IMG/VR virus record: IMGVR_UViG_3300032675_001827
Span: 1 to 64,000 of that record
Length of the DNA stretch: 64,000 nt
Direction: 5' to 3' (one strand)
Origin: a virus
Shown here: positions 9,254 to 64,000 of the stretch, one piece after another
Layout of the letters: each line of letters opens with the position of its first letter
Numbering within the stretch: the first letter of the stretch is position 1
Translations under genes and position numbers: made by a program
Notes under the pieces: model-generated
What the model was told of the DNA's origin: nothing
Databases searched by the model: none
What the model saw: only the letters and a program-made list of their open reading frames with translations

Positions 9254-9317
9254 ACGAAGCGTGCCCTGAGGAAGAACTATAGAAATTTATGTTGACAATA
9301 GATAACAAAATAAGACA

Positions 9318-12368
<3,051 letters not shown>

Positions 12369-12370
12369 TA

Positions 12371-12401
12371 AAAAAGGTGTAGCTAAAAACTACACCTTTT
12401 T
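12371..12401. terminator. Bidirectional intrinsic terminator
   Basis: aaaaaggtgtag-ctaaaaa-ctacaccttttt between convergent dnaK and release factor genes. Confidence 0.85.
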
Positions 12402-24438: not shown

Positions 24439-24462
24439 CATTAACATAAACACTGCTACACT
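24435..24462 (+). promoter_or_regulatory. Sigma70-type promoter for rIIB
   Basis: TTGACA-16-TACACT. Confidence 0.55.
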
Positions 24463-24497
24463 TACAACGCAACAACAGCTCAAAGGAGAGCAACACA

Positions 24498-25661: not shown

Positions 25662-25669
25662 TCCAAGCA

Positions 25670-25708
25670 ACTGGCATGTCAGACAAAAAACTAATCTGGC
25701 ATGCCAGT
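25670..25708. other. Inverted repeat between rIIB and lpxC
   Basis: actggcatgtcaga...tctggcatgccagt. Confidence 0.7.
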
Positions 25709-25711
25709 ACA

Positions 25712-34985: not shown

Positions 34986-37247
34986 TTAAATCTCGTTGTT
35001 TACTAATTCAATATCTTGCTGTTGAAAATTGGTTTCAATTATGTGATGTACTAGATTTCCATTATCAGCTGTGAATAAAACTCCGCCGCCATTTTTAAGT
35101 TTACCAAATAAAATTTCTCTGCTCAAAGGCTTTTTAACGTGCTCCTGCATGACTCTTGCCAATGGGCGTGCACCCATGTTTTTATCAAACCCTTTGTCAA
35201 TCAACCATTGCTTGGCTTGTGCATCAAATGCAATAGTTACACTCTTATTTTGACTTAGGTCATTGAGCTGATTGATAAATTTATCTAGCACTTTGACCAT
35301 GCTATCTTTTGTCAATCTGTTAAAATGAATAGTAGCGTCAAGACGGTTGCGGAATTCAGGAGTAAACCACAACTTGACTGCCTCTTGCCCTGCATCATTG
35401 CGTTCTGAATTACCAAAGCCAATTGAATTTTTTTCCATATCTGAAGCACCGAGATTTGATGTAAAAATCAAAAAGACATTGCGAGCGCTTGCAGTTTTAC
35501 CTGCTTGACTGGATATCATTCCGTTGTCCATTACTTGTAAGAAAATAGATACAATATCTGGATGGGCTTTTTCAATTTCGTCGCATAAAATAACTGCATG
35601 AGGATGTTGTTCTAGTTCATTTATGAGAATTCCAGATCCTGCCGAACCGTCGCCGTAACCTACATAACCGGGCGGCGATCCGATAAATTTGCTGACGCTG
35701 TGTTTTTCCATAAATTCACTCATATCAAATCTTATAAACGGGATATTAAGAGTAGCTGCCAATTGTTTTGCAATTTCTGTTTTTCCTACTCCTGTTGGTC
35801 CGGCAAACAAAAAGGATCCAAGTGTTTTGTTACCTTCGCGTAGACCAGATTTACTGATCAGTACAGCATCTGTTAGATTTAATACAGCTTCGTCTTGACC
35901 AAAAACGGTAGATTTTAGTGTGTTTTCCAATTGTTCAAGATCAACTATCTCTTGTTCACTATCTGATTTGATAGGTATCTTAGTCATCTGACTGATTTCA
36001 TAGGCTATTTCCTCAGTACCAATGCTTTCAACACGTTCATGTAAAGGTTTAATTTTCTGTCGTGCGCCTGCTGAATCTACTATGTCAAGTGCTTTGTCAG
36101 GCAAGCGTTTATCATGTATATATTTTACGCTTAAGTCAACTGCGCTGTCCAAAGCAGCTTTGGTGTAATTTACACCGTGAAATTGACTATAGTATTCACT
36201 TAGAGCATTTACAATGGTTTTAGAATCTTTGATTGATGGTTCTAGTACATCAATACGTTGAAATCTACGCATCAATGCGCGATCTTTTTCAAAATGTTTG
36301 CGAAACTCTTCTTGTGTTGTACTGCCAATGCACCGAATATCACCTCTGCTGAGTGCAGGTTTGAGCAGATTAGCTGCATCCATTGCACCGTTGCTGCCGC
36401 TGCCGGCGCCCATAATCATATGAATTTCATCAATGAATAAGATTGCATGTGGAAGTGCAGTAAAAGCTGAAATAATGTTTTGCATACGTTCTTCAAAATC
36501 ACCTCTAAATTTTGTACCAGCTATTACACTGCTTATATCTAGGCTATAAATGATTTTGTCATTTAGTGTATCAGGAACTGTGCCTTCAACAATATTCTTG
36601 GCCAAACCCTCTACTATCACTGTTTTTCCAACACCCGGATCGCCTAGAAGAATGCCATTGTTTTTATGCCTTCTAGCCATGATCTGTGTAATTTTTAGAA
36701 TCTCAGTTTCTCGACCAATCAATGGATCAATTTTCTTTTGTTTTGCTTTTTCATTGAGATTCACACAGTAATGTTCTAGAATTTCGCGAGCTTCTTTAAT
36801 ATTTGTAGTTGTTTGCTGCTGACTTTTTGTCTTTTGCAACAGTGATAGAACAATTTCTTTCTCAAGACCTGCTGCATTTAAAAAATATGATGCATGGCTA
36901 TTTTCGATGTTGAACATAGCGAGAAATAGATCCATACATCCCATATCACTGCGTGAAGAAAAAATGGTCTGAGTTTTGGCTTTTTTAACTGCTGTTAGCA
37001 GCAGTGAAGTATGACGCGGTTGATAAGATCCGGTTTTCACTAATACATGATTAGTTGCATCATGAATGTAAGCACGAACATCATCGGTTAATTTTTTAAG
37101 ATCTCCTGATGCTTGTGTTATTAAGGCTTGAATATCCTCTAACTCTAACAGAGCCATCAAAAGATGTTCTAAGGTAACAAATTCGTGCCTTAATCCAGCA
37201 GCAATTATATAAGCACGCTTTACAACATCTTCAAAACTATTTTGCAT
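34986..37247 (-). CDS. clpA: ATP-dependent Clp protease ATP-binding subunit ClpA
   Basis: HEFVTLEHLL, GDPGVGKT, LFIDEIH, GPTGVGKT, RFDMSEF, GSPPGYVG, GARPL. Confidence 0.93.
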   Translation of the reverse strand: MQNSFEDVVKRAYIIAAGLRHEFVTLEHLLMALLELEDIQALITQASGDLKKLTDDVRAYIHDATNHVLVKTGSYQPRHTSLLLTAVKKAKTQTIFSSRSDMGCMDLFLAMFNIENSHASYFLNAAGLEKEIVLSLLQKTKSQQQTTTNIKEAREILEHYCVNLNEKAKQKKIDPLIGRETEILKITQIMARRHKNNGILLGDPGVGKTVIVEGLAKNIVEGTVPDTLNDKIIYSLDISSVIAGTKFRGDFEERMQNIISAFTALPHAILFIDEIHMIMGAGSGSNGAMDAANLLKPALSRGDIRCIGSTTQEEFRKHFEKDRALMRRFQRIDVLEPSIKDSKTIVNALSEYYSQFHGVNYTKAALDSAVDLSVKYIHDKRLPDKALDIVDSAGARQKIKPLHERVESIGTEEIAYEISQMTKIPIKSDSEQEIVDLEQLENTLKSTVFGQDEAVLNLTDAVLISKSGLREGNKTLGSFLFAGPTGVGKTEIAKQLAATLNIPFIRFDMSEFMEKHSVSKFIGSPPGYVGYGDGSAGSGILINELEQHPHAVILCDEIEKAHPDIVSIFLQVMDNGMISSQAGKTASARNVFLIFTSNLGASDMEKNSIGFGNSERNDAGQEAVKLWFTPEFRNRLDATIHFNRLTKDSMVKVLDKFINQLNDLSQNKSVTIAFDAQAKQWLIDKGFDKNMGARPLARVMQEHVKKPLSREILFGKLKNGGGVLFTADNGNLVHHIIETNFQQQDIELVNNEI

Positions 37248-37746
37248 TTTTATTCTGCTTCCTTTTCTTATCTAGTTTTTTCTTAGCCATGCTAAGACTT
37301 AATTTTCCTACACGATCTGTAAAGCATATTCCTTGACAGTGATCAAATTCGTGCATCCATACTCTAGCTTCTAACCCTTCTAGCCTTTCAGTTGTTTCTG
37401 TACCTTCTAAACTGAAATACCTTGCAATCACACCTTCTGGACGTTTTACTTTGAGTAGCAGGCCTGGAAAGCTGAGGCAACCTTCCTCCATTATAATCAT
37501 GTTGAAACTGGCTCCAACTATCTCTGGATTAACGCAGATTCTTATTTTATCGTTAACAAGCATAGCAAACATAGCTAAATCTATGCCCAATTGGCATGCG
37601 CTTACACCAAGCGCATTTTGCTCATAAATTGTTTTAACAAGCAACGAGGCTATTGGTTGCAGTGTATTTTTGTATGTGTCAAATTGTTCTTGAGTTACCA
37701 ATTGTGTTTTGGTATGTAACACTTTATTTGTTGATTCAACTAACAT
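37237..37746 (-). CDS. def: Peptide deformylase
   Basis: GVSACQ, EGCLS, HEFDH. Confidence 0.92.
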   Translation of the reverse strand: MLVESTNKVLHTKTQLVTQEQFDTYKNTLQPIASLLVKTIYEQNALGVSACQLGIDLAMFAMLVNDKIRICVNPEIVGASFNMIIMEEGCLSFPGLLLKVKRPEGVIARYFSLEGTETTERLEGLEARVWMHEFDHCQGICFTDRVGKLSLSMAKKKLDKKRKQNKNAK

Positions 37747-37767
37747 GTATAATTTTTAACCTTACTA

Positions 37768-38658
37768 CTAATGGTTGTCAATGCTACGATTTTTTTGGAT
37801 TTGACTTAGTAAACTTAAATTTTCTGCGGAAAGATTCTGCGGTATTTCTAATTCTATAATCAAATACAAATCGCCGTGGGTGCCTGGATGTTCTCTTAAT
37901 GGCATACCTTGATTAACTATTCGCAATTTAGTTCCATGTTGAGTCCCTGGCGGGATCGTTACTGAGATTTTATGACCGTTAATTGCATAAATGTGCAATT
38001 TGGTTCCAACAATGGCTGAAATAGCGTCAACTTTGCAATGATGTTCTAAATGATTCCCGTGCCTAACAAATTTAGCATGCGGTGCGATTTCTACATGAAT
38101 GTACAAATCACCAGGCGGTAAACTGGTATTGCTATGATCGCCTTGCCCGGCATATCTTATTCTAGTGCCGTTGTCAATACCTTTGGGAATATCTATTACC
38201 AAATCAATTTTTCTACCACTGTTGGTAGTAAATCCAAGTGGTATCTGCTTTCCGTTATAGGAATCTTCTAGACTTATGTTAATGTTTAAATTTACATCTC
38301 TATTACGCTGAGGAGCTCTTCCAAAACCAGGAAAACCATGTTGACTGAAAAATTGTGCTACAAAATCATCAATATTAGTTGGATTATCAAAAGGACGACC
38401 ATTTACATTTACATTCCAATGAACTCCTCCATGATTTCCATGAAAAGGGTTCTTACGAGTTTGATCGTATTCTCTACGTTTGATTTCGTCACTTAGAATT
38501 TCATATGCTGCACTTATTTCTTTAAATTTAACTTCAGCGTCTTTATTGCCAGAATTGCGATCAGGATGCCACTGCATTGCAAGTTTCCGATAGGCTGCTT
38601 TAATTTCATCAGCTGACGCTGTTTCGTTAATGCCTAATGTTTCATAGTGTGTTGCCAT
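37768..38658 (-). CDS. DnaJ-class co-chaperone without Zn finger (CbpA-like)
   Basis: J domain with HPD; C-terminal PPGDLY and GDLY domains; no CxxCxGxG. Confidence 0.92.
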   Translation of the reverse strand: MATHYETLGINETASADEIKAAYRKLAMQWHPDRNSGNKDAEVKFKEISAAYEILSDEIKRREYDQTRKNPFHGNHGGVHWNVNVNGRPFDNPTNIDDFVAQFFSQHGFPGFGRAPQRNRDVNLNINISLEDSYNGKQIPLGFTTNSGRKIDLVIDIPKGIDNGTRIRYAGQGDHSNTSLPPGDLYIHVEIAPHAKFVRHGNHLEHHCKVDAISAIVGTKLHIYAINGHKISVTIPPGTQHGTKLRIVNQGMPLREHPGTHGDLYLIIELEIPQNLSAENLSLLSQIQKNRSIDNH

Positions 38659-39484: not shown

Positions 39485-40225
39485 GTGCAAATATTGATCC
39501 CCATGGGCGGTGCTGGTAGCAGATTTTCAGCTGCCGGATATGATCGTCCAAAACCATTTATAGAATTTCATGGTCAAACAATGATAGAAAATGTGGTTGA
39601 AAATCTTGGGCTTGATAATGAATATATCTTTGTAACGCAGCGCAGCCATTATGATGAATTTAGACTGGTTTATGAACGTATTCGAAACAAAGTACAGAAG
39701 CTACAGGTAGCAGTATTAGAAGGAATGACACGCGGGGCTGCAGAAAGTTGCTTGTACGCAAAAGATTTTCTTGATTTAGATATGCCACTAATGATCGCTA
39801 ATTGCGATCAGATGCTCGAATGGAACCCTGTTGTATTTAAAGCCTGGCTGTTTGATACAAAGATAGATGGCGCTATAATGACATTTGAAAGCCAAAGCCC
39901 TAAGAATAGCTTTGCAAGGCTGGACGAAGATGGGTTTGTAGTAGAAACAGCTGAAAAAAAAGTTATAAGTCCTTACGCAACAAACGGAATTTACGTGTGG
40001 AAACGTGCAGCTGATTTCGTTTCAGCTGCAGAAGAATTGATTGCTAGAGATTTACGAACGAACAATGAATTTTATGTAGCCCCTTGTTATAATCTTAATA
40101 TTGAACGTGGGCAAAAGATCAAAATCTATCCCATTAACGGTCACTGGCCTATTGGTACACCGCAGGATCTAACCATATATCTGGATCATTTTGGAGGAAA
40201 GCGTAATGCAAATACACACAGTTGA
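39485..40225 (+). CDS. Sugar/polyol-phosphate nucleotidyltransferase (GT-A fold)
   Basis: IPMGGAGSRF..GY..PKP, TRGAA, IANCDQ, EKKVIS, NNEFYVAP, GTP. Confidence 0.88.
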   Translation: MQILIPMGGAGSRFSAAGYDRPKPFIEFHGQTMIENVVENLGLDNEYIFVTQRSHYDEFRLVYERIRNKVQKLQVAVLEGMTRGAAESCLYAKDFLDLDMPLMIANCDQMLEWNPVVFKAWLFDTKIDGAIMTFESQSPKNSFARLDEDGFVVETAEKKVISPYATNGIYVWKRAADFVSAAEELIARDLRTNNEFYVAPCYNLNIERGQKIKIYPINGHWPIGTPQDLTIYLDHFGGKRNANTHS

Positions 40226-40541
40226 TAGTTTAGTAGGTGGTTGGTTTGTTGGTGCATTTTCTGGCGCAGTGTATCGCACCAGTGCGGTAGAAGTTTCATA
40301 CAAACAGCATTATGCAGGCGAAAAATGGCCTGCACATTATCATAAAATAGCTGACGAAATAAACTATCTAATAAGCGGCAAAATGGAAGTTGGCGGGCAA
40401 ATGTTAGAAGGACCTGTTATTTTTACAATTCCCAAAGGAGAAGTTTCAGCACCAGTATTTCACACAGATGTAACACTAATTGTAGTCAAAGTCCCTGGTG
40501 CACTCAACGACAAATATAATCTGGATGATCCAACAGTATGA
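40206..40541 (+). CDS. Small cupin-domain protein
   Basis: GGWFVGAF, HYHKIADE, VVKVP..NDKY. Confidence 0.75.
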   Translation: MQIHTVDSLVGGWFVGAFSGAVYRTSAVEVSYKQHYAGEKWPAHYHKIADEINYLISGKMEVGGQMLEGPVIFTIPKGEVSAPVFHTDVTLIVVKVPGALNDKYNLDDPTV

Positions 40542-41086
40542 TAGTAGAGCGCGAAGATCACAAATATTGTTTAGATATTGGAAGACCAACATTTTATACA
40601 GATGAACACAGAGATTTTTACAAAAAGATTTTTGATGTAATTGAAAACTCGCCAATACCTATGGTTGTAAACGGTATTTATAATCGGATAAAAAAAATGC
40701 TTTATGCAGGGTCTGGATATGGCGGGGGAGGTTTTGCTTTTTGCTTTTGGTTCGCAACCAAAGAAGACAGAAGAGAATTTGCACGATCGATGAAAGGCAT
40801 TGAAGTATCTATAGAAGACTGGCGAAATGTTACGTGGTATCAACCTTATCAATCTAAAATTTTGGTTTTGAAGTTCAACGGCAAGTATCTAGATCATGTG
40901 CAGCAATTTGCACAAAACAATGACATTACCATGCAACCATATATGAGTCCGCCACAAGGATTTGGCCGGGAATTGGATAAATCTCAATGGGATGTTATTC
41001 CAGGTCTACATGTGGCATCAGGTGATTACAAATTATTGTTAGAGTTAAAGCATCATCTCAATGATGTATTTTTAGATTTTGATTGA
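40538..41086 (+). CDS. Hypothetical protein
   Basis: ATGA overlap; 182 aa. Confidence 0.65.
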   Translation: MIVEREDHKYCLDIGRPTFYTDEHRDFYKKIFDVIENSPIPMVVNGIYNRIKKMLYAGSGYGGGGFAFCFWFATKEDRREFARSMKGIEVSIEDWRNVTWYQPYQSKILVLKFNGKYLDHVQQFAQNNDITMQPYMSPPQGFGRELDKSQWDVIPGLHVASGDYKLLLELKHHLNDVFLDFD

Positions 41087-41104
41087 CATTTTGGAGTTGC
41101 ATAA

Positions 41105-41308
41105 ATGAATAAAGAACTGTTCCGTACACTGTTATGGCGAGCAAGTGAGGGCTACAACGATAGCTGGAGTGCTGTTGATCCAGAAGTACTGGAAAATTTC
41201 GCAGAGTTAATTGTCCGAGAATGTGCAAAAATTGTTAATGACAATAATTTTGCAGGCAGCACACTAGGTGATAGGTTGCTGTTTCCTTATTTTGGAATTG
41301 AACAATGA
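41105..41308 (+). CDS. Small hypothetical phage protein
   Basis: FAELIVRECA motif. Confidence 0.65.
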   Translation: MNKELFRTLLWRASEGYNDSWSAVDPEVLENFAELIVRECAKIVNDNNFAGSTLGDRLLFPYFGIEQ

Positions 41309-41318
41309 TGTCGTGAAA

Positions 41319-42044
41319 TTACATTTTAATATTACGACGATCTAGTTCTCTTTTCAATGCAACAAGTTTATTGTTATCGCGCGAAATAGCATTGCGTATT
41401 TCACCTGCTACACCCGAAGGCAATGCACGCAGAACAGCATTAACTAGTTGTTCTGCTTGTGTTTGCGATTTTGCATGTGCTGCCTTTTTTTCAGCAGTTT
41501 CTTTGTCTTTTTTCTCTGCATATTTGTCTGAAATACTTAGCCCTGTTGCTGTTTTATCTTTAGATCTTTTCTTGTCTGATTTAGCATAATCGTCTAGACG
41601 ATCTAAAACATCTTGGTATGCCAGATCCTGTTTATGCCATGCTAATGCATTACGTGCCAGATGTTCGTAATTTGTATCTTTTCCAATCTTAACTAAAATG
41701 GGTGTTAGTGCTTCTGCCATATGCCTTAAATTTTCAGCCGATGGTTCTCGTAGGAACATACGTAATGCACTAGATGATTGACTGGGAGCTTGGTCAGCTA
41801 GATGATGCAAGTGAGAGATTAAATTTTTGCCGTCTTCGTTTAACCATTTTGAAATTACTCCCTTTTCCAACAAACGGAAGCCGCCCATACTGTCATTGTT
41901 TTCGGCATATTTCTGTGCCATGGATTCTAGTTTACTGTACAGTTCGGTTACGGGATTTCCAATGTCACTGGCAAGTAATTTTAAGGTGCTGGCTAGAGAG
42001 ACACTTTCAAGCATCACTCCGTCAATTATTTCAACTATACGCAT
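41319..42044 (-). CDS. Late protein, possibly head-packaged
   Basis: MRIVEII..MLES N-terminus; late motif 42071-42076. Confidence 0.6.
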   Translation of the reverse strand: MRIVEIIDGVMLESVSLASTLKLLASDIGNPVTELYSKLESMAQKYAENNDSMGGFRLLEKGVISKWLNEDGKNLISHLHHLADQAPSQSSSALRMFLREPSAENLRHMAEALTPILVKIGKDTNYEHLARNALAWHKQDLAYQDVLDRLDDYAKSDKKRSKDKTATGLSISDKYAEKKDKETAEKKAAHAKSQTQAEQLVNAVLRALPSGVAGEIRNAISRDNNKLVALKRELDRRNIKM

Positions 42045-42160
42045 GTCTAGACTCCGTTTCTTGATAGGATTATTTATCTCAATAGTTTGTGCCTAAGTAA
42101 TTGACAGAAAAGAAGCCTTATGACTAAAATTAAATTTATTTGTAACAGCAAAGGGCCGCG

Positions 42161-43300
42161 ATGACAATTGACATTGTTCAAGATAAAAAAGATTTAGACA
42201 ATTACTTTTATGTAAAATATTTCCTTAAGAGTGCAACTTCACTCTACGATGCAGCGTTTGATCTTGCAGTTGGTCAAAGTATCGGTAATCCAAGCATGAG
42301 AAGTGTTTGGGAAACCCCAGAAATGATTGCCTCTTATTGTGCAAAAATTCTACGAAGCCCTGATTTAGACCTAGCAGAAGGCCAAGTTGAAATAGGTTTT
42401 CCTTTGGTTAATATTGATTGGGCAACAGATGGTATAGCTCAGCTTCTGTGTACCATAGCGGGCGGACAAGTTGATATAGATCGTATCAAGGGCTGCCGAG
42501 CAATAGGCTTGGAATTTAGTGAAAGTTTTATAGAATCTAATTTCAAAAAACCTAAATTTGGATTAAGCGGATTTAGAGCTTTAACCGGGCAGTATAACAA
42601 GCCACTATTTGGTGGCATTATTAAACCAAAAACTGGAATTACCCCTGATCAATTACTTGATATGACCAAGCAGTTAGTCGACGGAGGCTGTGATTTTATA
42701 AAAGAAGATGAGATTATGGCAAACCCTGCTGTTTGCAGCCTTGAAGACCGTGTAGAATTAATTAGCCGGTACATAAGCAACACCAAAACAGTATACTGTT
42801 TTTGCATCAATGCAGACCCTGCATATATTGTACCAAGAGCTAAGTTTGTTGCTGAAAATGGTGGGCGCGGTGTACACATTAATGTATGGAGCGGTCTTGG
42901 CTCATACAAAAGCATTCGTGATTTAGACTTACCCCTTTACATACACTATCAAAAGAGTGGTGATAGAATATTTACAAGCAAATACAATCCATTTTCTATT
43001 TCGTGGCAACTTTGCTGTCAGCTGGCAGCTTGGTGCGGAGTTGATACTATCCACGCTGGCATGTGGGGTGGTTATCTGTCAGATCCAGAAGATGAACTAC
43101 GCGAAACACTGAAAATACTAACTGATAGGAACGTTACCCCTGCGCTTAGTTGCGGATTAACAAGTGAAAGTATAAGGCCAATAGTTGATAAATTTGGCGT
43201 AGACTGGCTGGGAAATAGTGGTGGTGGAATACATAGCCATCCAGAAGGTAGTCAAACCGGGGCGGCAAAAATTAGAGCTGCTGTAGACCAAATAGGCTAA
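42161..43300 (+). CDS. RuBisCO-like protein (form IV)
   Basis: GQSIG, PKFG, GGIIKPKTG, GGCDFIKEDE, GVDTIHAG, GGGIHSHPEG; 379 aa. Confidence 0.88.
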   Translation: MTIDIVQDKKDLDNYFYVKYFLKSATSLYDAAFDLAVGQSIGNPSMRSVWETPEMIASYCAKILRSPDLDLAEGQVEIGFPLVNIDWATDGIAQLLCTIAGGQVDIDRIKGCRAIGLEFSESFIESNFKKPKFGLSGFRALTGQYNKPLFGGIIKPKTGITPDQLLDMTKQLVDGGCDFIKEDEIMANPAVCSLEDRVELISRYISNTKTVYCFCINADPAYIVPRAKFVAENGGRGVHINVWSGLGSYKSIRDLDLPLYIHYQKSGDRIFTSKYNPFSISWQLCCQLAAWCGVDTIHAGMWGGYLSDPEDELRETLKILTDRNVTPALSCGLTSESIRPIVDKFGVDWLGNSGGGIHSHPEGSQTGAAKIRAAVDQIG

Positions 43301-43305
43301 AAGCA

Positions 43306-43923
43306 TTGAAAATAGCAGTATCATTCAGTGGGTTACCTAGGTTACATCACAGGTCTATGTATGCGTGGGAAGGTTTAATCAAAAATACTTCAGCTGATGT
43401 CTACATGCACCTGTGGAACACCGGCGATGGTGCAGCTGAAAAAATGGTTGAGATTTATTCACCTGTTTCTTATAGTATTGAAAATTTCAGAAATTTTGAT
43501 GTGTCTCAGTATACAGAACGTCTGCAGTATTCAAATCCGTACAACGTTTTAAGTATGTGGACTAGTATATCAGAAAGCATTAATTTGGTATTAGGATCTA
43601 AACAAACATACGATATAGTAATTCGTGCAAGATCTGATGTGGAATTTGATCAATTTCAATTCCTAAACAACCACGGAGTAATAATACCCGGAAAACCAGC
43701 TGAAATATACGAGTATAATGGCGAGAGGTACCCTGGCTGGCACGACATGATTGCTTATGGTAATTTAAGTAGCATGCGCGAGTACGCAAATACCTTGTAT
43801 TCAATACCTACGATTTATTCAGAAGGCAGTCCATTTTTTAGTGAATTTTTTCTTAGCACGCACCTTTATAGAACGAAAACAAACGTTACACATCATAACA
43901 TATATGCAGATATAGTAAGATAG
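43306..43923 (+). CDS. Putative glycosyltransferase-like protein
   Basis: KIAVSFSGLPR, DVYMHLW, YDIVIRARSD, DMIAYG. Confidence 0.65.
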   Translation: MKIAVSFSGLPRLHHRSMYAWEGLIKNTSADVYMHLWNTGDGAAEKMVEIYSPVSYSIENFRNFDVSQYTERLQYSNPYNVLSMWTSISESINLVLGSKQTYDIVIRARSDVEFDQFQFLNNHGVIIPGKPAEIYEYNGERYPGWHDMIAYGNLSSMREYANTLYSIPTIYSEGSPFFSEFFLSTHLYRTKTNVTHHNIYADIVR

Positions 43924-43936
43924 CAAGGATTTTTAA

Positions 43937-45853
43937 ATGGTAGATTTTATGCAATACGAGGACAATCCTGATAGTCCTGAAACTCTTTTGACATTTAGCA
44001 ATGAACTGGCAAATGATAGATTACATAATCTTTCAGTTCTTATTGCAGAACGGGGTTTAGAGCGTACTGTAGATCATACAACACGAACAAAATTATTAGA
44101 ACAAATTAGTATAAGTGGTTTTTATACAAAAGGGCCAGATGGTAAAAAACGAGGTAAAGAAGCCTGTGAAGAATTAGCATTAGATCGCAAAAACAGCTGG
44201 CATACCAAAAATTTAGCCCGCCAGAACAGCACTTACTATGCTAGAAGTTTGTCTTCACTATTACCAAAGACTGAATGCAAACCGTTTGTCTATACTCCGC
44301 CAGATGATTATAAACCTATGAATCCTAGTATTACCAATAAAGGTAGCGAGTTATGGATGATTCAACGAACTGTAAATTATGTTATTAGGCCCGATGGCAG
44401 CTATAACATGCGAGGCGACAGTGCTATTAGAACACGCAATTATCTCTGTCAATTAGATGAACAATTACAATGTGTGTCTGCTAGAGAAATACTACCTCCG
44501 CTAAATCTGCCGCCAGCACAATATGGGGCTGTAATTGGATGGGAGGATTGCAGACTGTTTTACTGGAATGATAGTTTTTGGTGTACTAGCACGGTTCGAG
44601 AATTAAATGCAGAAGGTTACTGTGAAATTGTTCTTTCTAAAATTATAGAACAAGATGGTTTTTTATATTTTTCCGACTATTGTGTAATACAGCCGCAATT
44701 TTGTGGTAGAGAGCATCAAAAAAATTGGATGCCAATGGTGGTAGGCACAGATTTATATTTTATGTACAGCAGTGATCCAGCAAGAATCATTGATGTAAAT
44801 GGAAACTTGATAAGCAGCAAAGCGACACATATTGCAGCCGACAGTTTTAGAGGAGGTAGTCAACTATTGCCGTTTAATGGAGGTTGGCTAGCCATAATAC
44901 ACGAAAGTCATATAATGCCTGATAACAAAAGAAGGTATATGCATAGACTTGTATGGTATGATAACATAGGACGATTATCCAAATACAGTGAAGCTTTTTT
45001 TATACACACACTTGGTATAGAATTTGCAGCTGGATTGGCCTTTAAAAAAGACAGCGGCCAAATTGTTATAAGCTTTGGTTTAGCTGATAAGGAAAGCTGG
45101 GTGGCATTGATTGACGAAAACGAACTTTGTCAAATACTTCAACCGGCAGGTGTAATCCTGCCAAGACTAGGCGACTTAAATGATACAAGCTGGATTATAA
45201 GTCAGACCAACCGTTCGCTGCTTGACAGCGATAGCGTCAGCAAAGCAACTGGTATTGCGTTGCGAGCTGGCATATCTAGTCACGAGGATGCAGCCAAAAA
45301 TTGGGATAACCTTGTAGCAGTTTGGCATGCAACTATGACAACTGATATCGATAGTCCAGTTATGGATGTAGCTGCTACAGAAGGCAGTGCGTTTCTTCCT
45401 GCCTTAGAAAGATTTGGCTATCAACATTTATTCAGTATAAACATTGATGAACCAAATCCACGCACAATTGGAAAAATTCATTATCAACATGGCGATTGTA
45501 CCAACACAAGTTTCGAAGATAATTACTTTGGATTTATATCCTGTTTGAGTGTTATAGAACATGGAGTTGATATTCAAAAATTCATGCAGGAATCTGCAAG
45601 AATTCTCAAGTCAGGTGGCTATCTCTTGGTAAGCACAGATTATTGGCAAGACACTGTTGATACATTTGGGCAAACTGCATTTGGATCACCTGTGAAAGTT
45701 TTTACAGCTCAAGAAATCGCTGAATTAATAAATTTTGCTCAATCAGCAGGCTTACAAATTACCAGCAATGTTGATTTAACCTGCAACGAACGAGTGGTTA
45801 ATTGGATAGGCATGGATTATACATTTATTAATTTGCTTTTTAGGAAGCCTTGA
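43937..45853 (+). CDS. Beta-propeller glycosidase-like domain fused to a class I SAM methyltransferase
   Basis: NPSI, EDCRL, QKNWMP, RGGSQ, IEFAAG; C-terminal CLSVIEHG, RILKSGGYL. Confidence 0.7.
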   Translation: MVDFMQYEDNPDSPETLLTFSNELANDRLHNLSVLIAERGLERTVDHTTRTKLLEQISISGFYTKGPDGKKRGKEACEELALDRKNSWHTKNLARQNSTYYARSLSSLLPKTECKPFVYTPPDDYKPMNPSITNKGSELWMIQRTVNYVIRPDGSYNMRGDSAIRTRNYLCQLDEQLQCVSAREILPPLNLPPAQYGAVIGWEDCRLFYWNDSFWCTSTVRELNAEGYCEIVLSKIIEQDGFLYFSDYCVIQPQFCGREHQKNWMPMVVGTDLYFMYSSDPARIIDVNGNLISSKATHIAADSFRGGSQLLPFNGGWLAIIHESHIMPDNKRRYMHRLVWYDNIGRLSKYSEAFFIHTLGIEFAAGLAFKKDSGQIVISFGLADKESWVALIDENELCQILQPAGVILPRLGDLNDTSWIISQTNRSLLDSDSVSKATGIALRAGISSHEDAAKNWDNLVAVWHATMTTDIDSPVMDVAATEGSAFLPALERFGYQHLFSINIDEPNPRTIGKIHYQHGDCTNTSFEDNYFGFISCLSVIEHGVDIQKFMQESARILKSGGYLLVSTDYWQDTVDTFGQTAFGSPVKVFTAQEIAELINFAQSAGLQITSNVDLTCNERVVNWIGMDYTFINLLFRKP

Positions 45854-46497
45854 TGAAAATAGCACTGGCTTTAAGTGGGCTGACACGGATACATGCCATA
45901 TCAGCTGCAAGCTGGGGTAGAATTATCGGAAAGTATCAACCAGATGTTTATATTCATTCATGGTGCTTGCCTGCAGATATGTCTGTTATATATGACCAAC
46001 TAGGCCGGGTGTTCAAACCTAAACAAATATTGCTGGAAGAGCCTATAAGTATTGACACAGCCCCTTACCCAGACCGGCACTGGCCCTATATAAATGTTGA
46101 CCGCAGCTTAAGTATGTGGCATAGTATTTGTAGAGCTTATAGTATGGTAATTGAGCATGACGTAAATTATGATATAATTATAAGAGGCAGAATGGATTGG
46201 CATGTTCACAGCTTAGATTTAATTGATCATGATGGTATTGTTTTGCCGTATGATAGAGATAAGATTCCTTTAAAATTTAACTATAATGGTAACAACATGC
46301 ACGGCTTAAACGATCATTTTGCTTATGGGTCGCCAAAATGGATGAAATGTTACACAAATACTCTTGCACTTATACCGCAACTATACTCTCAAGAGGGTGT
46401 GGATTACTGTCCTGAAAATTTTCTTGCAGCAAGTCTGGCCAAACAACATGTACCAGTAATGCTACAAAATCTTGAACATTGTTTAATACGGAGTTGA
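45853..46497 (+). CDS. Putative glycosyltransferase-like protein
   Basis: KIALALSGLTR, DVYIHSW, YDIIIRGRMD, NDHFAYG, PE. Confidence 0.65.
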   Translation: MKIALALSGLTRIHAISAASWGRIIGKYQPDVYIHSWCLPADMSVIYDQLGRVFKPKQILLEEPISIDTAPYPDRHWPYINVDRSLSMWHSICRAYSMVIEHDVNYDIIIRGRMDWHVHSLDLIDHDGIVLPYDRDKIPLKFNYNGNNMHGLNDHFAYGSPKWMKCYTNTLALIPQLYSQEGVDYCPENFLAASLAKQHVPVMLQNLEHCLIRS

Positions 46498-46498
46498 A

Positions 46499-47575
46499 AT
46501 GAAAATAGGAATATATGGTCCGGCTAAAAACGAACGACACCATGTAGATGCTTGGTTTGAAAGTTGCAAAAATGCCGATGTAATTTGCATTGCTGATACA
46601 GGAAGTACAGATGGTACACGAGAACGATTGATAGAACTAGGTGTAAATGTAACTGATGTAAGAATAGTACCATGGAGATTCGACGATGCTTTTAATATGG
46701 CAATGTACCTTTTGCCAGATGATGTTGATGTCTGCATTCGCCTTGATATAGACGAACGACTCCAGCCAGGATGGCGAGAAGCGTTAGAACGAGATTGGAC
46801 ACCAGAAACTACAAGATTACGATATCCTTACGTTTGGAACTGGAATCCAGATGGCACACCTGGCAGGCAATGGTATAGTGATCGTATCCATGCTAGATCA
46901 GGTTACAGGTGGGTCGGTGCAACACACGAAGGTTTATGCAGTAGAATACCCGAGGTTCAAACATTTACAGATGATGTTAAAATTTGGCAATTTCCAGACG
47001 CCAAAGACAAGAAGAATGATTTATCATTGTTGCTAGAAAGTGTGAGAGACTGGCCACAAGATGCAAGACTATGGGCATACTTGGGTAGAGAATATATGTA
47101 TCAAGGTCTATATGAAAAGAGCGTTGAAACTTATAAACAGTTTTTAACTATGAGCTGGGATAAAGTAGAACGCGGCCAGGCTATGGTCAATCTAAGCATT
47201 ACTGATTCAGGTAATAAAGAGTTTTGGCTTAGAATGGCCAGTATTGAAACACCAGGACACAGAGAACCGTTGGTCAATCTTGCACAATACTATTACGATA
47301 AAAAAGATTGGACAAAATGCTATGAAGCATCTAAAAAGGCATTAGAAATAACTGTTCATCCTATGGATTATACTTGTACTCCCGAAGCATGGGGTTGGCA
47401 ACCACATGATTTACTGAGTATAGCTGCATGGAATCTTGGATTATTTCAAGAAAGTTATGAACAAAGCCTGATAGCTCTTGAGAAAAATCCGCATGATCAA
47501 CGACTGCAGAGTAATCTAAAATTGGTAGCCGATTTTATAACAGAAAATAATCTAAATTCAAACAAAACCAGCTGA
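46499..47575 (+). CDS. GT2 glycosyltransferase with TPR-like C-terminus
   Basis: KNE, DTGSTDGT, WRFDDA, LDIDE, HE, YLGREY. Confidence 0.88.
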   Translation: MKIGIYGPAKNERHHVDAWFESCKNADVICIADTGSTDGTRERLIELGVNVTDVRIVPWRFDDAFNMAMYLLPDDVDVCIRLDIDERLQPGWREALERDWTPETTRLRYPYVWNWNPDGTPGRQWYSDRIHARSGYRWVGATHEGLCSRIPEVQTFTDDVKIWQFPDAKDKKNDLSLLLESVRDWPQDARLWAYLGREYMYQGLYEKSVETYKQFLTMSWDKVERGQAMVNLSITDSGNKEFWLRMASIETPGHREPLVNLAQYYYDKKDWTKCYEASKKALEITVHPMDYTCTPEAWGWQPHDLLSIAAWNLGLFQESYEQSLIALEKNPHDQRLQSNLKLVADFITENNLNSNKTS

Positions 47576-49258: not shown

Positions 49259-50030
49259 TCTATTTGACAGCAACCATTATGGCTTCAATTTCAAATACCT
49301 ATCAAGCATAGATATAGATTTAGACCATAGTCTGCTTCAAAAAATATTAGAATATTTGGTGCAAAATGCTTCTGTGTCTATGCCACTAGGAAAACAAGAT
49401 CCATTTTGGTTAGGACAAAGAATAAGGGGTGTGGATATGGATACTGTACCTGAAGAACTAAAAAGCTTGAATCCTGCACAAATTGAATTCTTTTTACGAC
49501 AACGCACCGATGTCAGTTGGAATTGGGTTGATACTCCAATTACGCAAACGGTGTATAAATTACTTGAACCAATTAGTTCTTTGTATAAAACTCTAACAAG
49601 AGTTAAAATTTTTGCTCAAATTCCGACTAAAGCCATTTTGCCACACAGAGATTTAGTAGCCGGTGCAATGTACAACAGGATGCATGAAGATACCGTTACT
49701 AGACTTGGAACAAATCTTCTTAGATATAATGGCGAGGAATGGTTCAAAAAAATTTATACAGTTCCTGATAATTTTACTCATGCTGAGCAAGGCTATCTAG
49801 CATTAAAAATACCATTGGATTTTCTCCAACCAGGGAGATCATATCTTTGCGATTTTGAAAATAATAGATATTATTACGATCCATCTAATAAGCCATATTT
49901 GCTTAACGAATACGAAATTCTACATGGTGTTGATGCAGTTGATCAATGGAGAGGTGTAGTGTTTCTCGACGGGATACTAGATATAAGTAAAATTAATTGT
50001 ATGCAGAAACCTATGCACAGAAATTCTTAG
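49251..50030 (+). CDS. Putative 2OG-Fe(II) oxygenase-like protein
   Basis: PHRD, LN...LHGVD, R..VFLDG. Confidence 0.55.
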   Translation: MYDLFDSNHYGFNFKYLSSIDIDLDHSLLQKILEYLVQNASVSMPLGKQDPFWLGQRIRGVDMDTVPEELKSLNPAQIEFFLRQRTDVSWNWVDTPITQTVYKLLEPISSLYKTLTRVKIFAQIPTKAILPHRDLVAGAMYNRMHEDTVTRLGTNLLRYNGEEWFKKIYTVPDNFTHAEQGYLALKIPLDFLQPGRSYLCDFENNRYYYDPSNKPYLLNEYEILHGVDAVDQWRGVVFLDGILDISKINCMQKPMHRNS

Positions 50031-50521
50031 TGTGTCTCCCATGGAAACACAATCCATCTAGGGTTGCTATTTTTATTCACAGATAGTCCGTAAAAATCAA
50101 CAAAAAAATCAGAAACTAGGTTGTCAACTAAAACGGCAGATCGCAGATTATTTTGACAAACTGTTGTCCAATCCTCTTGCGACATTACGCCTGCAACATT
50201 AGAGTACCAATCCTCTTGAATCCACTTGAATGTAGCCCCTGAATCATTTATATCGTCTACTAATAGAATTTTTTTACCGCCAATTAGATCCTCTGGCATC
50301 CAGCAATTTGTTTCGCAATCTTTGTCATCGCGCAGGCTTACTTTTAAGCCGTACATAGGAACTTCCAATATATGGCTCAACATTACTGCCGGAACCGCGC
50401 CGCCTCGTAATATTCCTACTATATAATCAGGCCTCCACTTGCTTTTCAAAATATCAAAAGCAAGCTTGTTGGTTAAATTCTGAAACTTTTTCCAAGAAAA
50501 AACTCTAGTTTTTAGGTCCAT
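50027..50521 (-). CDS. Type I phosphoribosyltransferase
   Basis: IVGILRGG, ILLVDDINDSGATF, WIVFPWE. Confidence 0.9.
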   Translation of the reverse strand: MDLKTRVFSWKKFQNLTNKLAFDILKSKWRPDYIVGILRGGAVPAVMLSHILEVPMYGLKVSLRDDKDCETNCWMPEDLIGGKKILLVDDINDSGATFKWIQEDWYSNVAGVMSQEDWTTVCQNNLRSAVLVDNLVSDFFVDFYGLSVNKNSNPRWIVFPWETH

Positions 50522-53706: not shown

Positions 53707-54459
53707 CTAAGATTTTGCATACCATTTCAAAATTGTAGAAATTACAGGATGACGTTCTACATCATTTTTAGTAAATTCTATAACTTTAATACGATCGTGC
53801 GATTCAAATCTATTTAGAAAATCAGTTAATCCGTTTTTTTGTCCTCGATCACTTTGGTCAATGTCTCCGGTAACAATGATCTTGCTACCTTCGCCAATTC
53901 TAGTCAAAACGCTTACCATACTATTAGGTGTTGTATTTTGGCCTTCATCTACTATCACTATGCTGTTTTTCAAAGTACGTCCTCTGACAAACGCCATTGG
54001 TAGCAGTTCTATTACATTTTCTTCTATCATAGCCTGTATTTCTTTTACAGAATAATATTCTTCGAAAATTTCTAAAATAGGTCTGGTCCAAGGAGCCATT
54101 TTAGCATAAATGTCGCCTGGCAAAAATCCTATGTCCCTGTCATCTAATGCAATGTTAGGACGTGTTATAACAATTTTATTGATTACGTGTTCTTTGAGTT
54201 GTTGAATTGCATAAAGTGTGGCTATGTAACTCTTTCCAGTTCCTGCTGGACCGGTAGCAAAAACAATGTCTACCTTTGGATTATCAAGCGCATCTATGTA
54301 AGCTTCTTGCGCTAGGTTTTTAGGAAGTAAAATAACTTTTTGTTTTATTGGCTTTCTATAGTTGTTTATATCTATTATATTTTCTTTTGATTGATTGTTT
54401 GAATAGCTGCGTGTTTTCTGATCTGCCTTATAACCGGCGTGCTTTAAACGTCTGCTCAA
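53707..54459 (-). CDS. phoH: PhoH-family ATPase
   Basis: GPAGTGKS, GFLPG, RGRT, DEGQN, LTRIG, GDIDQSD, VERH. Confidence 0.95.
   Translation of the reverse strand: MSRRLKHAGYKADQKTRSYSNNQSKENIIDINNYRKPIKQKVILLPKNLAQEAYIDALDNPKVDIVFATGPAGTGKSYIATLYAIQQLKEHVINKIVITRPNIALDDRDIGFLPGDIYAKMAPWTRPILEIFEEYYSVKEIQAMIEENVIELLPMAFVRGRTLKNSIVIVDEGQNTTPNSMVSVLTRIGEGSKIIVTGDIDQSDRGQKNGLTDFLNRFESHDRIKVIEFTKNDVERHPVISTILKWYAKS

Positions 54460-54532: not shown

Positions 54533-60508
<5,976 letters not shown>

Positions 60509-60924: not shown

Positions 60925-64000
<3,076 letters not shown>

What the first reader, a model, noticed from the sequence alone, without database searches (positions are those of the whole stretch)
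39485..47575. RuBisCO-like protein embedded in a phage glycan-biosynthesis cluster
Seen: nucleotidyltransferase and cupin (39485-40541), then a tight run of a form IV RuBisCO-like protein (KPKTG, IKEDE), two paralogous 'KIAxxxSGxxR' proteins, a propeller-methyltransferase fusion and a GT2-TPR. Known: form IV proteins do not fix CO2 and catalyse enolate chemistry on sugar-like phosphates (methionine salvage, sugar-acid catabolism). No methionine salvage genes, phosphoribulokinase or small subunit are in the window. Inference: this protein makes an unusual sugar or polyol-phosphate precursor that is nucleotide-activated and transferred to a glycan, which would be a biosynthetic role for a viral RuBisCO-like protein.
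Basis: partly seen in the sequence, partly recalled or inferred. Interest (0 to 1): 0.75.

Follow-up and report, generated by a model that had tools for sequence, protein, structure and literature searches.

The report
Phage RuBisCO-like sugar-activation gene cassette
A giant freshwater T4-like phage carries an intact RuBisCO relative that cannot fix CO2 and that, in phages, bacteria and archaea alike, sits beside (sometimes fused to) a sugar-activating enzyme inside glycan gene islands, pointing to an untested sugar-building job for the RuBisCO fold.

Summary
Window 42161-43300 encodes an intact 379-aa RuBisCO-superfamily protein. It keeps the metal and carbamate site (KPK, K-E-D-E) but lacks the carboxylase residues N123, H294, K334, E60 and T65.

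A nucleotidyltransferase (39485-40225) and a small cupin (40206-40541) lie upstream. Two GT-A-fold DUF7796 paralogues, a methyltransferase fusion and a weak GT2-TPR follow in a tight run.

The new evidence is comparative:
- The nucleotidyltransferase sits beside the RLP in 78 of 80 viral loci (40 of 40 clusters at 90% identity) and in 44 of 47 cellular loci (SAR11, Legionella, Nonomuraea, CPR, DPANN).
- At least 18 protein clusters are RLP-nucleotidyltransferase fusions.
- The clade is monophyletic (SH-aLRT 100) and separate from form III, YkrW-like and OiaX-like proteins.
- The surrounding islands hold glycosyltransferases, epimerases and methyltransferases.
- No PRK, small subunit or MtnA/IF-2B is found, even in a complete 518-kb relative.

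Two things are particular to this window: a real 1.6-kb orphan insertion splits the cupin from the RLP, and the usual mini-GDPD partner is missing.

Phage RLPs were published in 2019 with unknown function, and this scan has met the same cassette on other genomes. The chemistry remains untested.

The parts
39485..40225 (+). Nucleotidyltransferase of the 4evw type (sugar- or alcohol-phosphate activating). It is the constant partner of the RLP.
   Evidence: Pfam NTP_transferase 32.6 bits. Family profile against PDB 4evw: 4e-36 over the full length. G9, G11, R13 and K23 are invariant. It lies next to the RLP in 78 of 80 viral loci and 44 of 47 cellular loci. It is fused to the RLP in at least 18 protein clusters.
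40206..40541 (+). Small metal-binding cupin (111 aa counted from the ATG at 40206; the listed ORF starts at TTG 40191).
   Evidence: AlphaFold pLDDT 94.9. Foldseek hits to cupins, including Thermococcus phosphomannose isomerase 7zvm and 7zvy. H44, H46 and E51 are invariant. Present in 72 of 80 viral loci, between the nucleotidyltransferase and the RLP.
40538..42044 (.). Window-specific 1.6-kb insertion with three orphan ORFs: 40538-41086 (+), 41105-41308 (+) and 41319-42044 (-). It separates the cupin from the RLP.
   Evidence: No homologue in any of 80 related loci. No Pfam or PHROG hit. Not a diverged copy of the mini-GDPD partner (hhalign probability 0.3). Contigs from independent lake metagenomes bridge both junctions.
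42101..42130 (+). Promoter-like site (TTGACA-18-TAAAAT) about 30 nt upstream of the RLP start.
   Evidence: Consensus scan, 11 of 12 matches. This is weak evidence: 43 sites were found against 34.6 expected.
42161..43300 (+). RuBisCO-like protein, 379 aa. It is non-carboxylating and belongs to the nucleotidyltransferase-linked 'IV-like' clade.
   Evidence: Pfam RuBisCO_large 99 bits. PDB 8dht 3e-35 and 3nwr 9e-34. All NCBIfam equivalogs score far below their cut-offs. Active-site table. Monophyletic clade with SH-aLRT 100.
43306..43923 (+). DUF7796 paralogue 1, a small GT-A-fold putative glycosyltransferase.
   Evidence: Local profile search 4.6e-53. The family occurs in 52 of 81 loci. The fold was inferred from the model of paralogue 2.
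43937..45853 (+). Fusion of a conserved island domain (residues about 120-400, fold untested) with a C-terminal SAM methyltransferase domain (residues 473-608).
   Evidence: Pfam Methyltransf_11, _23 and _25. The N-terminal domain stands alone in 10 loci. No PDB sequence match.
45850..46497 (+). DUF7796 paralogue 2, a small GT-A-fold putative glycosyltransferase.
   Evidence: Pfam DUF7796 23.9 bits, below the cut-off. AlphaFold pLDDT 94.7. The best PDB folds are GT6 enzymes (BoGT6a, alpha-3GalT), TM 0.5-0.59.
46499..47575 (+). Putative GT2-like domain plus TPR protein.
   Evidence: Glycos_transf_2 E 0.0026, sub-threshold. TPR_2 28.2 bits. 58-70% identical homologues occur downstream of the RLP in the closest loci, L002-L006.

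Best explanation
The RLP is the signature enzyme of a portable precursor-supply cassette. The core is the RLP plus a nucleotidyltransferase. A His2-Glu cupin is usually present, and in most relatives a miniature GDPD-like phosphodiesterase as well. The cassette feeds an unusual nucleotide-activated sugar, or possibly a polyol or keto-alcohol phosphate, to the variable transferases around it. In this window those are two GT-A-like DUF7796 proteins, a methyltransferase fusion and a GT2-TPR protein.

Proposed steps:
1. The RLP uses its retained carbamylated-Lys/Asp/Glu-Mg2+ site and the KPK lysines to enolise and isomerise a mono-phosphorylated keto-sugar. This step is inferred. The C1-phosphate site (S379, G381, G403, G404) is kept, while the distal-phosphate site (R295, H298, H327) is variable.
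2. The cupin performs a metal-dependent aldose-ketose isomerisation or epimerisation. This step is inferred from the fold.
3. The nucleotidyltransferase couples the phosphate ester to an NTP. This step is inferred from family membership and from the fusions.
4. The transferases put the unit on a glycan, on the virion or on the Gram-negative host's envelope. The target is unknown.

What is shown: the genes are intact, the active-site pattern, the near-obligate linkage and the fusions, the glycan-type neighbourhood in viruses and cells, and the absence of CO2-fixation and methionine-salvage partners.
For: - Linkage: the nucleotidyltransferase is beside the RLP in 78 of 80 viral loci and the cupin in 72 of 80. 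The order is NT-cupin-RLP on the same strand.
- After dereplication, 40 of 40 clusters at 90% identity and 14 of 14 at 70% keep the nucleotidyltransferase.
- In cellular genomes 44 of 47 loci keep it, although the gene order is rearranged (RLP-cupin-NT, RLP-NT, NT-RLP-NT).
- Fusions: at least 18 clusters of 666-672-aa proteins carry RuBisCO_large plus NTP_transferase at 45-50% identity. An Atlas cluster holds 82 such fusions.
- Neighbour families: DUF7796 (GT-A fold) in 52 loci, SDR epimerase/dehydratase in 32, WavE in 28, GT11 in 16, an SGNH-like family in 15. In cellular loci the neighbours are GT2, methyltransferase, B12-radical SAM and WavE genes.
- In SAR11 a five-gene island (mini-GDPD, NT, RLP, NT, DUF7796) sits between housekeeping genes.
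- Active site: K175, K177, K201, D203, E204, S379, G381, G403 and G404 are invariant in 35 sequences. N123>G, H294>Q, K334>Y, E60>Q and T65>N are also invariant.
- The clade is monophyletic at SH-aLRT 100 against 79 outgroup representatives.
- No PRK, RbcS or IF-2B in the record, and no PRK or IF-2B in five relatives' records, two of them complete (518 kb and 204 kb).
- The phage also encodes LpxC, so it has a diderm host and an interest in its envelope.
Against: - No biochemical datum exists for any member. The substrate, the nucleotide and the acceptor are all unknown.
- The mini-GDPD partner, found in 67 of 81 loci, is missing from this window and from the whole 74.6-kb record. The record is only about 18% of the genome.
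- The cassette here is interrupted by a 1.6-kb insertion, so co-transcription of NT-cupin with the RLP is not assured.
- The GT2 call for 46499-47575 is sub-threshold.
- In Legionella the divergent neighbour is a LicD-family protein. That would fit a CDP-alcohol-phosphate donor better than a glycosyl donor.
- Neighbourhood evidence cannot tell a glycan target from a DNA target in phages.
Confidence: 0.65

Rival explanations
1. The cassette makes a CDP-activated keto-alcohol or polyol phosphate, by the logic of CDP-ribitol, CDP-glycerol or CDP-choline. That unit is then transferred as a phospho-unit, as in teichoic acids or phosphocholine decoration, and not as a glycosyl unit.
For: - In four Legionellaceae loci the two-gene RLP-NT operon sits divergently next to a LicD-family phosphotransferase (3e-43).
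- The frequent partner is a GDPD-like phosphodiesterase: HRG...E.D...HD motifs, and the profile matches PDB glycerophosphodiesterase 7e0v at 1.6e-5.
- The same nucleotidyltransferase fold is fused in viruses to DHBP synthase (RibB), whose product is a four-carbon keto-diol phosphate.
- LicC and inositol-phosphate cytidylyltransferases are structural neighbours.
Against: - LicD adjacency is confined to one bacterial family and may be inherited synteny.
- The phage islands are rich in GT-A, GT2 and GT11-type glycosyltransferases and SDR epimerases, which are typical of NDP-sugar use.
- HAD (mutase or phosphatase)-nucleotidyltransferase fusions in the same fold neighbourhood fit the sugar-1-phosphate route.
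Confidence: 0.2
2. The activated sugar is used to hypermodify phage DNA, as in the glucosyl- or arabinosyl-hydroxymethylcytosine of T-even-type phages, and not a glycan.
For: - The phage is T4-like: rIIA and rIIB at 22297-25661 and long tail fibres.
- T-even relatives are known to glycosylate their DNA (established knowledge).
Against: - The same cassette with the same kinds of transferases sits in chromosomes of SAR11, Legionella, Nonomuraea, CPR bacteria and DPANN archaea, which are not known to glycosylate DNA.
- The neighbours are polysaccharide-type families: WavE, GT11, GT2 and SGNH.
- No hydroxymethylase was looked for in this fragmentary record, so this rival is not formally excluded.
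Confidence: 0.08
3. The RLP and the cupin form a salvage module for SAM by-products, comparable to the Rhodospirillum rubrum RLP isomerase followed by a cupin methylsulfurylase, or to the methionine-salvage enolase.
For: - RLP-plus-cupin pairing has a precedent in the R. rubrum MTA-isoprenoid shunt. This is recalled from the literature and was not re-read here.
- The RLP keeps the enolisation machinery.
Against: - The clade is separate from YkrW-like sequences. MtnW models score 95-105 bits against cut-offs of 409-514.
- No IF-2B/MtnA isomerase in the record or in five relatives' records, two of them complete.
- The obligate partner is a nucleotidyltransferase, not the cupin. Seven viral loci and most cellular loci lack the cupin.
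- The cupin profile found no methylsulfurylase-like entry in the PDB.
Confidence: 0.04
4. The protein is a true CO2-fixing or AMP-pathway (form III-like) RuBisCO.
For: The best NCBIfam model is rubisco_III (154 bits) and the best PDB match, 8dht, is deposited as ribulose bisphosphate carboxylase.
Against: - 154 bits against a cut-off of 497.
- N123, H294, K334, E60 and T65 are all replaced, invariantly across the clade.
- No PRK, small subunit or ribose-1,5-bisphosphate isomerase.
Confidence: 0.01

Closest known systems
'Form IV-like' RuBisCO-related proteins of phages and Beckwithbacteria (Jaffe, Castelle, Dupont & Banfield 2019, Mol Biol Evol, PMC6389311)
   Same: This is the same clade. The proteins are phage-encoded, highly divergent, keep only part of the key residues, include a large curated phage and some Myoviridae, and group with Beckwithbacteria. 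In my tree the Beckwithbacteria locus L092 falls inside the clade.
   Different: That paper left the function open and did not describe the gene neighbourhood. Added here: the near-obligate nucleotidyltransferase linkage and fusions, the cupin and mini-GDPD partners, the glycan-island context, and the wide cellular distribution (SAR11, Legionella, Nonomuraea, Verrucomicrobia, DPANN).
Characterised form IV RLPs: DK-MTP-1-P enolase (MtnW/YkrW), R. rubrum MTRu-1-P isomerase, 3-oxo-isoapionate-4-phosphate decarboxylase OiaX
   Same: RuBisCO large-subunit fold, the carbamate-Lys/Asp/Glu metal site, loss of carboxylase residues, and expected enolate chemistry on a phosphorylated keto compound.
   Different: Scores lie far below every equivalog cut-off: MtnW 95-105 against 409-514, and OiaX 119 against 700. 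The branch is separate. The known enzymes act in catabolism or salvage, whereas this clade sits in biosynthetic glycan islands next to a nucleotidyltransferase.
Bifunctional PMI-GMP enzymes (ManC/AlgA type: nucleotidyltransferase domain plus cupin isomerase domain) and the archaeal small cupin phosphomannose isomerases (PDB 7zvm, 7zvy)
   Same: A sugar-phosphate nucleotidyltransferase is paired with a small metal cupin. The phage cupin's best structural matches are these isomerases.
   Different: Here the two are separate genes of other subfamilies. Sequence identity is about 20%, and a RuBisCO-like enzyme is added. The architecture of ManC and AlgA is recalled from knowledge and was not tested.
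lic-type decoration systems (LicC cytidylyltransferase plus LicD phosphotransferase)
   Same: A small NTP_transferase-fold activating enzyme next to a LicD-family transferase in Legionella loci.
   Different: No choline kinase or transporter is present. LicD is absent from all phage loci and from all other cellular loci examined.
PDB 4evw, 'nucleoside-diphosphate-sugar pyrophosphorylase' of Vibrio cholerae RC9 (structural-genomics entry)
   Same: Closest solved relative of the nucleotidyltransferase, aligned over the full length at 4e-36.
   Different: The substrate of 4evw is not given in the entry title, so it transfers no specificity.

Membership tests
Bona fide RuBisCO (forms I-III) | RuBisCO large-subunit catalytic fold | tested here: met
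   Pfam PF00016 99 bits against a cut-off of 30.1. PDB RuBisCO and RLP hits down to 3e-35.
Bona fide RuBisCO (forms I-III) | Activator lysine K201 with metal ligands D203 and E204, and K175/K177 | tested here: met
   K181-E-D183-E184 and K155-P-K157 are invariant in 35 clade members. The mapping uses the 8dht alignment.
Bona fide RuBisCO (forms I-III) | Carboxylase residues N123, H294, K334, E60 and T65/W66 | tested here: not met
   The replacements are G102, Q264, Y305, Q39 and N43/P44, each invariant across the clade.
Bona fide RuBisCO (forms I-III) | Curated family score (NCBIfam rubisco_III, PRK04208, form II) | tested here: not met
   154, 134 and 73 bits against cut-offs of 497, 438 and 489.
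Bona fide RuBisCO (forms I-III) | Pathway partners: PRK, small subunit, or ribose-1,5-bisphosphate isomerase | tested here: not met
   None in the 74.6-kb record. No PRK or IF-2B in five relatives' records, two of them complete genomes of 518 kb and 204 kb.
Methionine-salvage enolase MtnW/YkrW (form IV) | Equivalog-level similarity and tree placement with YkrW-type sequences | tested here: not met
   105 and 95 bits against 409 and 514. The clade is split from all 79 outgroup representatives at SH-aLRT 100, including the one that scores best on the MtnW models.
OiaX-type RLP (3-oxo-isoapionate-4-phosphate decarboxylase) | Equivalog-level similarity | tested here: not met
   119 bits against 700. 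OiaX-like representatives form a separate branch.
Phage/Beckwithbacteria 'IV-like' RLP clade (Jaffe et al. 2019) | Phage-encoded divergent RLP that groups with Beckwithbacteria sequences, outside the other RLPs | tested here: met
   245 viral contigs encode relatives. The Beckwithbacteria locus L092 lies inside the clade. The paper's description matches.
Sugar-/alcohol-phosphate nucleotidyltransferase (NTP_transferase, GT-A-like fold) | Family score and the N-terminal G-x-G-x-R ... K nucleotide-binding motif | tested here: met
   PF00483 32.6 bits against 21.2. G9, G11, R13 and K23 are invariant. 4evw 4e-36.
Sugar-/alcohol-phosphate nucleotidyltransferase (NTP_transferase, GT-A-like fold) | Catalytic activity and substrate and nucleotide specificity | not testable with these tools
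   Needs an enzyme assay.
Cupin superfamily | Double-stranded beta-helix fold and motif 1, G(X)5HXH(X)3-4E(X)6G | tested here: met
   pLDDT 94.9. Foldseek probability 1.0 to many cupins. H44, H46, E51 and G58 are invariant. The Pfam cupin models match only below threshold.
GT-A glycosyltransferases (for the DUF7796 paralogues) | GT-A Rossmann-like fold with a donor-binding acidic motif | tested here: inconclusive
   The fold resembles GT6 enzymes at TM 0.5-0.59, but nucleotidyltransferases (4evw, LicC) also match. Conserved D107, R113, D115 and D154 do not form a classical DxD motif.
GDPD phosphodiesterases (for the partner family missing here) | The HR(G)...E.D...HD catalytic motifs | tested here: met
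   H22, R23, E51, D53 and H67 are invariant. The profile matches PDB 7e0v at 1.6e-5 over the first 54 positions only. The proteins are about 150-170 aa, roughly two-thirds the length of a normal GDPD. No copy is in this window.

The most novel reading that the evidence does not exclude
This RLP clade is the committed enzyme of an undescribed pathway to a nucleotide-activated unusual sugar, such as a ketose or rearranged pentose or tetrose unit, or a keto-polyol phosphate. The pathway is shared by giant and T4-like phages, SAR11, Legionella, CPR bacteria and DPANN archaea. It would be the first anabolic, glycan-building function in the RuBisCO superfamily and the source of a surface-sugar component not yet recognised in abundant aquatic microbes.
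Probability: 0.5. Interest if true: 0.8.

Novelty: new variant of a known kind. Interest (0 to 1): 0.66.

Why it matters
Known RuBisCO-like proteins work in salvage or catabolism. A whole clade locked, and sometimes fused, to a nucleotidyltransferase inside glycan islands would give the superfamily a biosynthetic role.

It would also define a new activated sugar or polyol donor used by very abundant organisms: SAR11, freshwater and marine T4-like and giant phages, CPR bacteria and DPANN archaea. That matters for phage-host recognition, because surface glycans are receptors and shields. It matters for annotation, because these genes are routinely mislabelled 'ribulose-bisphosphate carboxylase large chain' and counted as viral carbon-fixation genes. 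It matters for enzymology, because it offers a new reaction on the RuBisCO scaffold.

The cassette is small and self-contained, with cultured carriers such as Legionella drozanskii, Nonomuraea rosea and a Pelagibacter isolate. The question is therefore directly testable.

Tried and rejected
- GenBank phage records (INPHARED, tblastn): no relative of the RLP, so no cultured phage is available for comparison.
- Literature: no paper links RuBisCO-like proteins with nucleotidyltransferases, nucleotide sugars or O-antigens.
- KfoD/BcbE idea (a link to the fructosylated K4 capsule): only a review listing kfoD as a gene of unknown function was found. Homology of the phage nucleotidyltransferase to KfoD or BcbE could not be tested, so the idea was dropped as unsupported.
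- Mini-GDPD partner: sought in the window by single sequence, by profile over all six frames and by hhalign against the 182-aa insertion ORF. It is absent.
- Insertion ORFs and seven other cluster-flanking ORFs: no informative PHROG or Pfam hit, apart from a virion structural protein and PhoH.
- N-terminal domain of the methyltransferase fusion: no PDB sequence relative, either alone or as a profile.
- DUF7796 profile against PDB sequences: nothing. Only the fold search was informative.
- One script call failed on the machine side.
- Sequencing runs: no RNA holder is listed, so nothing can be said about expression.
- The promoter and terminator scan is close to the chance level.

Full report
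**What the window is.** The window is the first 64 kb of a 74.6-kb IMG/VR virus record that CheckV rates 18% complete. That implies a genome of roughly 0.4 Mb. PHROG matches show rIIA (22297-24435), rIIB (24498-25658), very long collagen-like tail fibres (54551-60505, and 60931 to the window end) and homing endonucleases. This is therefore a T4-like giant myophage. The closest loci by RLP identity include a complete 518,643-bp genome with terminal repeats, which shares the local gene order (L006 = G001). The stretch 39485-43300 is held in full by many lake-water metagenome runs, and at 75-94% of its sampled words by four further freshwater or unlabelled metagenome runs from four other studies.

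**The genes.**
- 39485-40225 is a nucleotidyltransferase. Pfam NTP_transferase scores 32.6 bits. The family profile matches the uncharacterised Vibrio cholerae entry 4evw over its full length at 4e-36.
- The next gene most likely starts at the ATG at 40206, as in its relatives. It is a small cupin. The AlphaFold model has pLDDT 94.9. The best PDB folds are small cupins, among them Thermococcus phosphomannose isomerases. H44, H46 and E51 of cupin motif 1 are invariant.
- 42161-43300 is a 379-aa RuBisCO large-subunit homologue (Pfam 99 bits). Its best PDB matches are 8dht at 3e-35 and the RLP 3nwr at 9e-34.
- 43306-43923 and 45850-46497 are 33% identical paralogues that both begin MKIAxxxSGxxR. 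They belong to DUF7796. A confident model (pLDDT 94.7) is GT-A-like, closest to GT6 glycosyltransferases at TM 0.5-0.59.
- 43937-45853 carries a C-terminal SAM methyltransferase domain. Its N-terminal part (residues about 120-400) is a family that stands alone in ten other islands. Its fold could not be tested.
- 46499-47575 is only weakly GT2 plus TPR, but it is conserved downstream of the RLP in the nearest relatives.

**Active site.** The residues were mapped through the 8dht alignment onto the standard RuBisCO numbering; the motif assignment is from my own knowledge of the family. In 35 clade members the following are invariant: K175, K177, K201, D203, E204, S379, G381, G403 and G404. The clade equally invariantly has G for N123, Q for H294, Y for K334, Q for E60 and N-P for T65-W66. 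R295, H298 and H327 vary (K/S, D/A, H/Q). Three inferences follow. The enolisation machinery is intact. Carboxylation is excluded. One phosphate site is kept while the distal one is relaxed, which suggests a monophosphate substrate. That last point is inference.

**Family placement.** Every curated NCBIfam model scores far below its cut-off: rubisco_III 154 against 497, OiaX 119 against 700, MtnW 95-105 against 409-514. An exhaustive search of 1.84 billion representatives shows a clear score break between the clade (at least about 175 bits) and everything else (at most 141 bits). A maximum-likelihood tree of 124 sequences (window, 19 viral, 25 cellular, 79 outgroup representatives; IQ-TREE quick search, LG+G4) separates the clade from all outgroups with SH-aLRT 100. 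Rows left out were fragments and proteins outside 370-500 aa. Within the clade the window groups with L002, L003 and L006. The unresolved lineages at the base of the clade are bacterial (Nonomuraea, Elusimicrobia, Turneriella, Azospirillum, Legionella). The Beckwithbacteria sequence lies inside the clade, which matches the 'IV-like' group reported by Jaffe et al. 2019. I could not import named reference sequences for each form IV subgroup. The outgroup labels therefore rest on NCBIfam scores of ten representatives.

**The decisive evidence is comparative.**
- 245 viral contigs encode a relative. In the 80 fetched, the window's nucleotidyltransferase has a homologue next to the RLP in 78 and the cupin in 72. 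The order is almost always NT-cupin-RLP, on one strand and tightly packed.
- After dereplication, 40 of 40 clusters at 90% identity and 14 of 14 at 70% keep the nucleotidyltransferase.
- A scan of one genome per prokaryotic species found the same clade in 50 cellular loci. These include a complete Pelagibacter chromosome, three Legionella species, Nonomuraea rosea, Azospirillum oleiclasticum, Verrucomicrobiae, Turneriella, Beckwithbacteria, Saccharibacteria, and Woesearchaeota and Nanoarchaeota.
- The nucleotidyltransferase is adjacent in 44 of 47 usable cellular loci although the order differs (RLP-cupin-NT, RLP-NT, NT-RLP-NT).
- At least 18 protein clusters of 666-672 aa fuse RuBisCO_large with NTP_transferase at 45-50% identity to the window protein. 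The protein atlas lists a cluster of 82 such fusions.
- Linkage that survives rearrangement across domains of life, together with the fusions, is strong evidence that the two enzymes act in one pathway.

**The surroundings are glycan-type and variable.** This is what one expects for a constant precursor module next to changeable transferases. De novo families in the viral loci:
- a roughly 150-170-aa protein just downstream of the RLP, in 67 of 81 loci;
- DUF7796, in 52;
- SDR epimerase/dehydratase, in 32;
- WavE, in 28;
- GT11, in 16;
- an SGNH-like family, in 15.

The first of these carries the HRG...E.D...HD motifs of glycerophosphodiester phosphodiesterases, and its profile matches PDB 7e0v at 1.6e-5. 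It is a miniature GDPD, as earlier notes of this scan had suggested. Cellular loci add GT2 enzymes, methyltransferases, a B12-radical SAM enzyme and WavE. In SAR11 a five-gene island (mini-GDPD, NT, RLP, NT, DUF7796) sits between thyX and housekeeping genes. In Legionellaceae the two-gene operon lies beside a LicD-family transferase.

**What is particular to this window.**
- Three orphan ORFs (40538-42044) separate the cupin from the RLP. They have no homologue in any related locus and no family match. Contigs from independent lake metagenomes bridge both junctions, so the insertion is real.
- A near-consensus promoter-like site lies 30 nt before the RLP. This is weak evidence.
- The mini-GDPD is absent by single-sequence, profile and profile-profile tests. 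In its usual place stand the domain-methyltransferase fusion and a second DUF7796 copy.
- All three core genes keep every invariant residue, so the cassette looks functional.

**Partners of other RuBisCO pathways.** No small subunit, PRK or IF-2B (MtnA or ribose-1,5-bisphosphate isomerase) is present in the record. No PRK or IF-2B is present in five relatives' records, two of them complete genomes.

**Mechanism.** I commit to the following model.
1. The RLP enolises and isomerises a mono-phosphorylated keto-sugar.
2. The cupin adds an aldose-ketose or epimerase step.
3. The nucleotidyltransferase activates the product.
4. The GT-A-like and other transferases install it on a glycan, and the methyltransferase decorates it.

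Only the gene-level facts are shown; each chemical step is inference.

A sub-variant is a CDP-activated keto-alcohol or polyol phosphate transferred as a phospho-unit. It is favoured by the LicD neighbour, by the GDPD-like partner, and by the viral fusions of the same nucleotidyltransferase fold to DHBP synthase. I rate it about 0.2. DNA hypermodification is not excluded for phages, but it is made unlikely by the cellular distribution.

The phage also encodes LpxC and collagen-like fibres. Both the host envelope and the virion are therefore plausible targets, and the present data do not favour either.

**Prior knowledge.** Phage RLPs were reported in 2019 with 'possible functionality unclear'. 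Full-text searches found nothing that connects RLPs with nucleotidyltransferases, nucleotide sugars or O-antigens. This scan has met the same cassette repeatedly on other DNA: 113 notes in at least 71 genomes. The points I reused from those notes (fusions, mini phosphodiesterase, SAR11/Legionella/DPANN distribution) were re-tested here.

Noticed in passing
window 25658-26572 (+): The phage encodes LpxC (UDP-3-O-acyl-GlcNAc deacetylase) directly behind rIIA/rIIB. It matches Pseudomonas LpxC structures at 4.6e-53. This implies a diderm host and an interest in host LPS synthesis.
   Followed up: partly
window 17506-18237 (-): A third DUF7796-family member lies far from the cassette (profile 1.5e-23). 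The phage may hold another glycan module.
   Followed up: no
window 34986-38658 (-): A chaperone and protein-maturation block lies just upstream of the cassette: a ClpB/ClpC-like AAA+ protein (753 aa), peptide deformylase and DnaJ.
   Followed up: no
window 50027-50521 (-) and 53707-54459 (-): A phosphoribosyltransferase-domain protein and a PhoH-like protein lie downstream. Neither is conserved next to the RLP in most other loci, apart from PhoH in 15.
   Followed up: no
window 54551-60508 and 60931-63999 (+): Two very long tail-fibre proteins with collagen-like repeats (1985 aa and more than 1023 aa).
   Followed up: no
protein P0186 (583 aa, from the representative search): A TIR domain is fused to a full RuBisCO-like protein (TIR_2 + RuBisCO_large_N + RuBisCO_large). 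It lies outside the clade studied here. TIR domains usually signal immune or NADase functions, so this fusion is odd.
   Followed up: no
proteins P0169 and P0171 (726 and 742 aa): IF-2B (ribose-1,5-bisphosphate isomerase type) fused to a form III-like RuBisCO. This is a one-protein version of two steps of the AMP pathway.
   Followed up: no
L119 (Nonomuraea rosea) 7989-12908: In this actinomycete the cassette (RLP-cupin-NT) is followed by a GT2, a protein with an AdoHcy-hydrolase-like NAD domain and a deoxynucleoside-kinase-like protein. This could be a natural-product or cell-wall variant of the pathway.
   Followed up: partly
L121-L124 (Legionellaceae), e.g. L122 6776-9945: A two-gene RLP-NT operon lies divergently next to a LicD-family transferase, and the arrangement is conserved in four species.
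   Followed up: partly
protein atlas neighbours of window 39485-40222: The same nucleotidyltransferase fold is fused in viruses to HAD phosphatase/mutase domains and to DHBP synthase (RibB; 229 members, 99% viral). This suggests a wider set of phage pathways in which enediol-type enzymes feed this nucleotidyltransferase family.
   Followed up: partly
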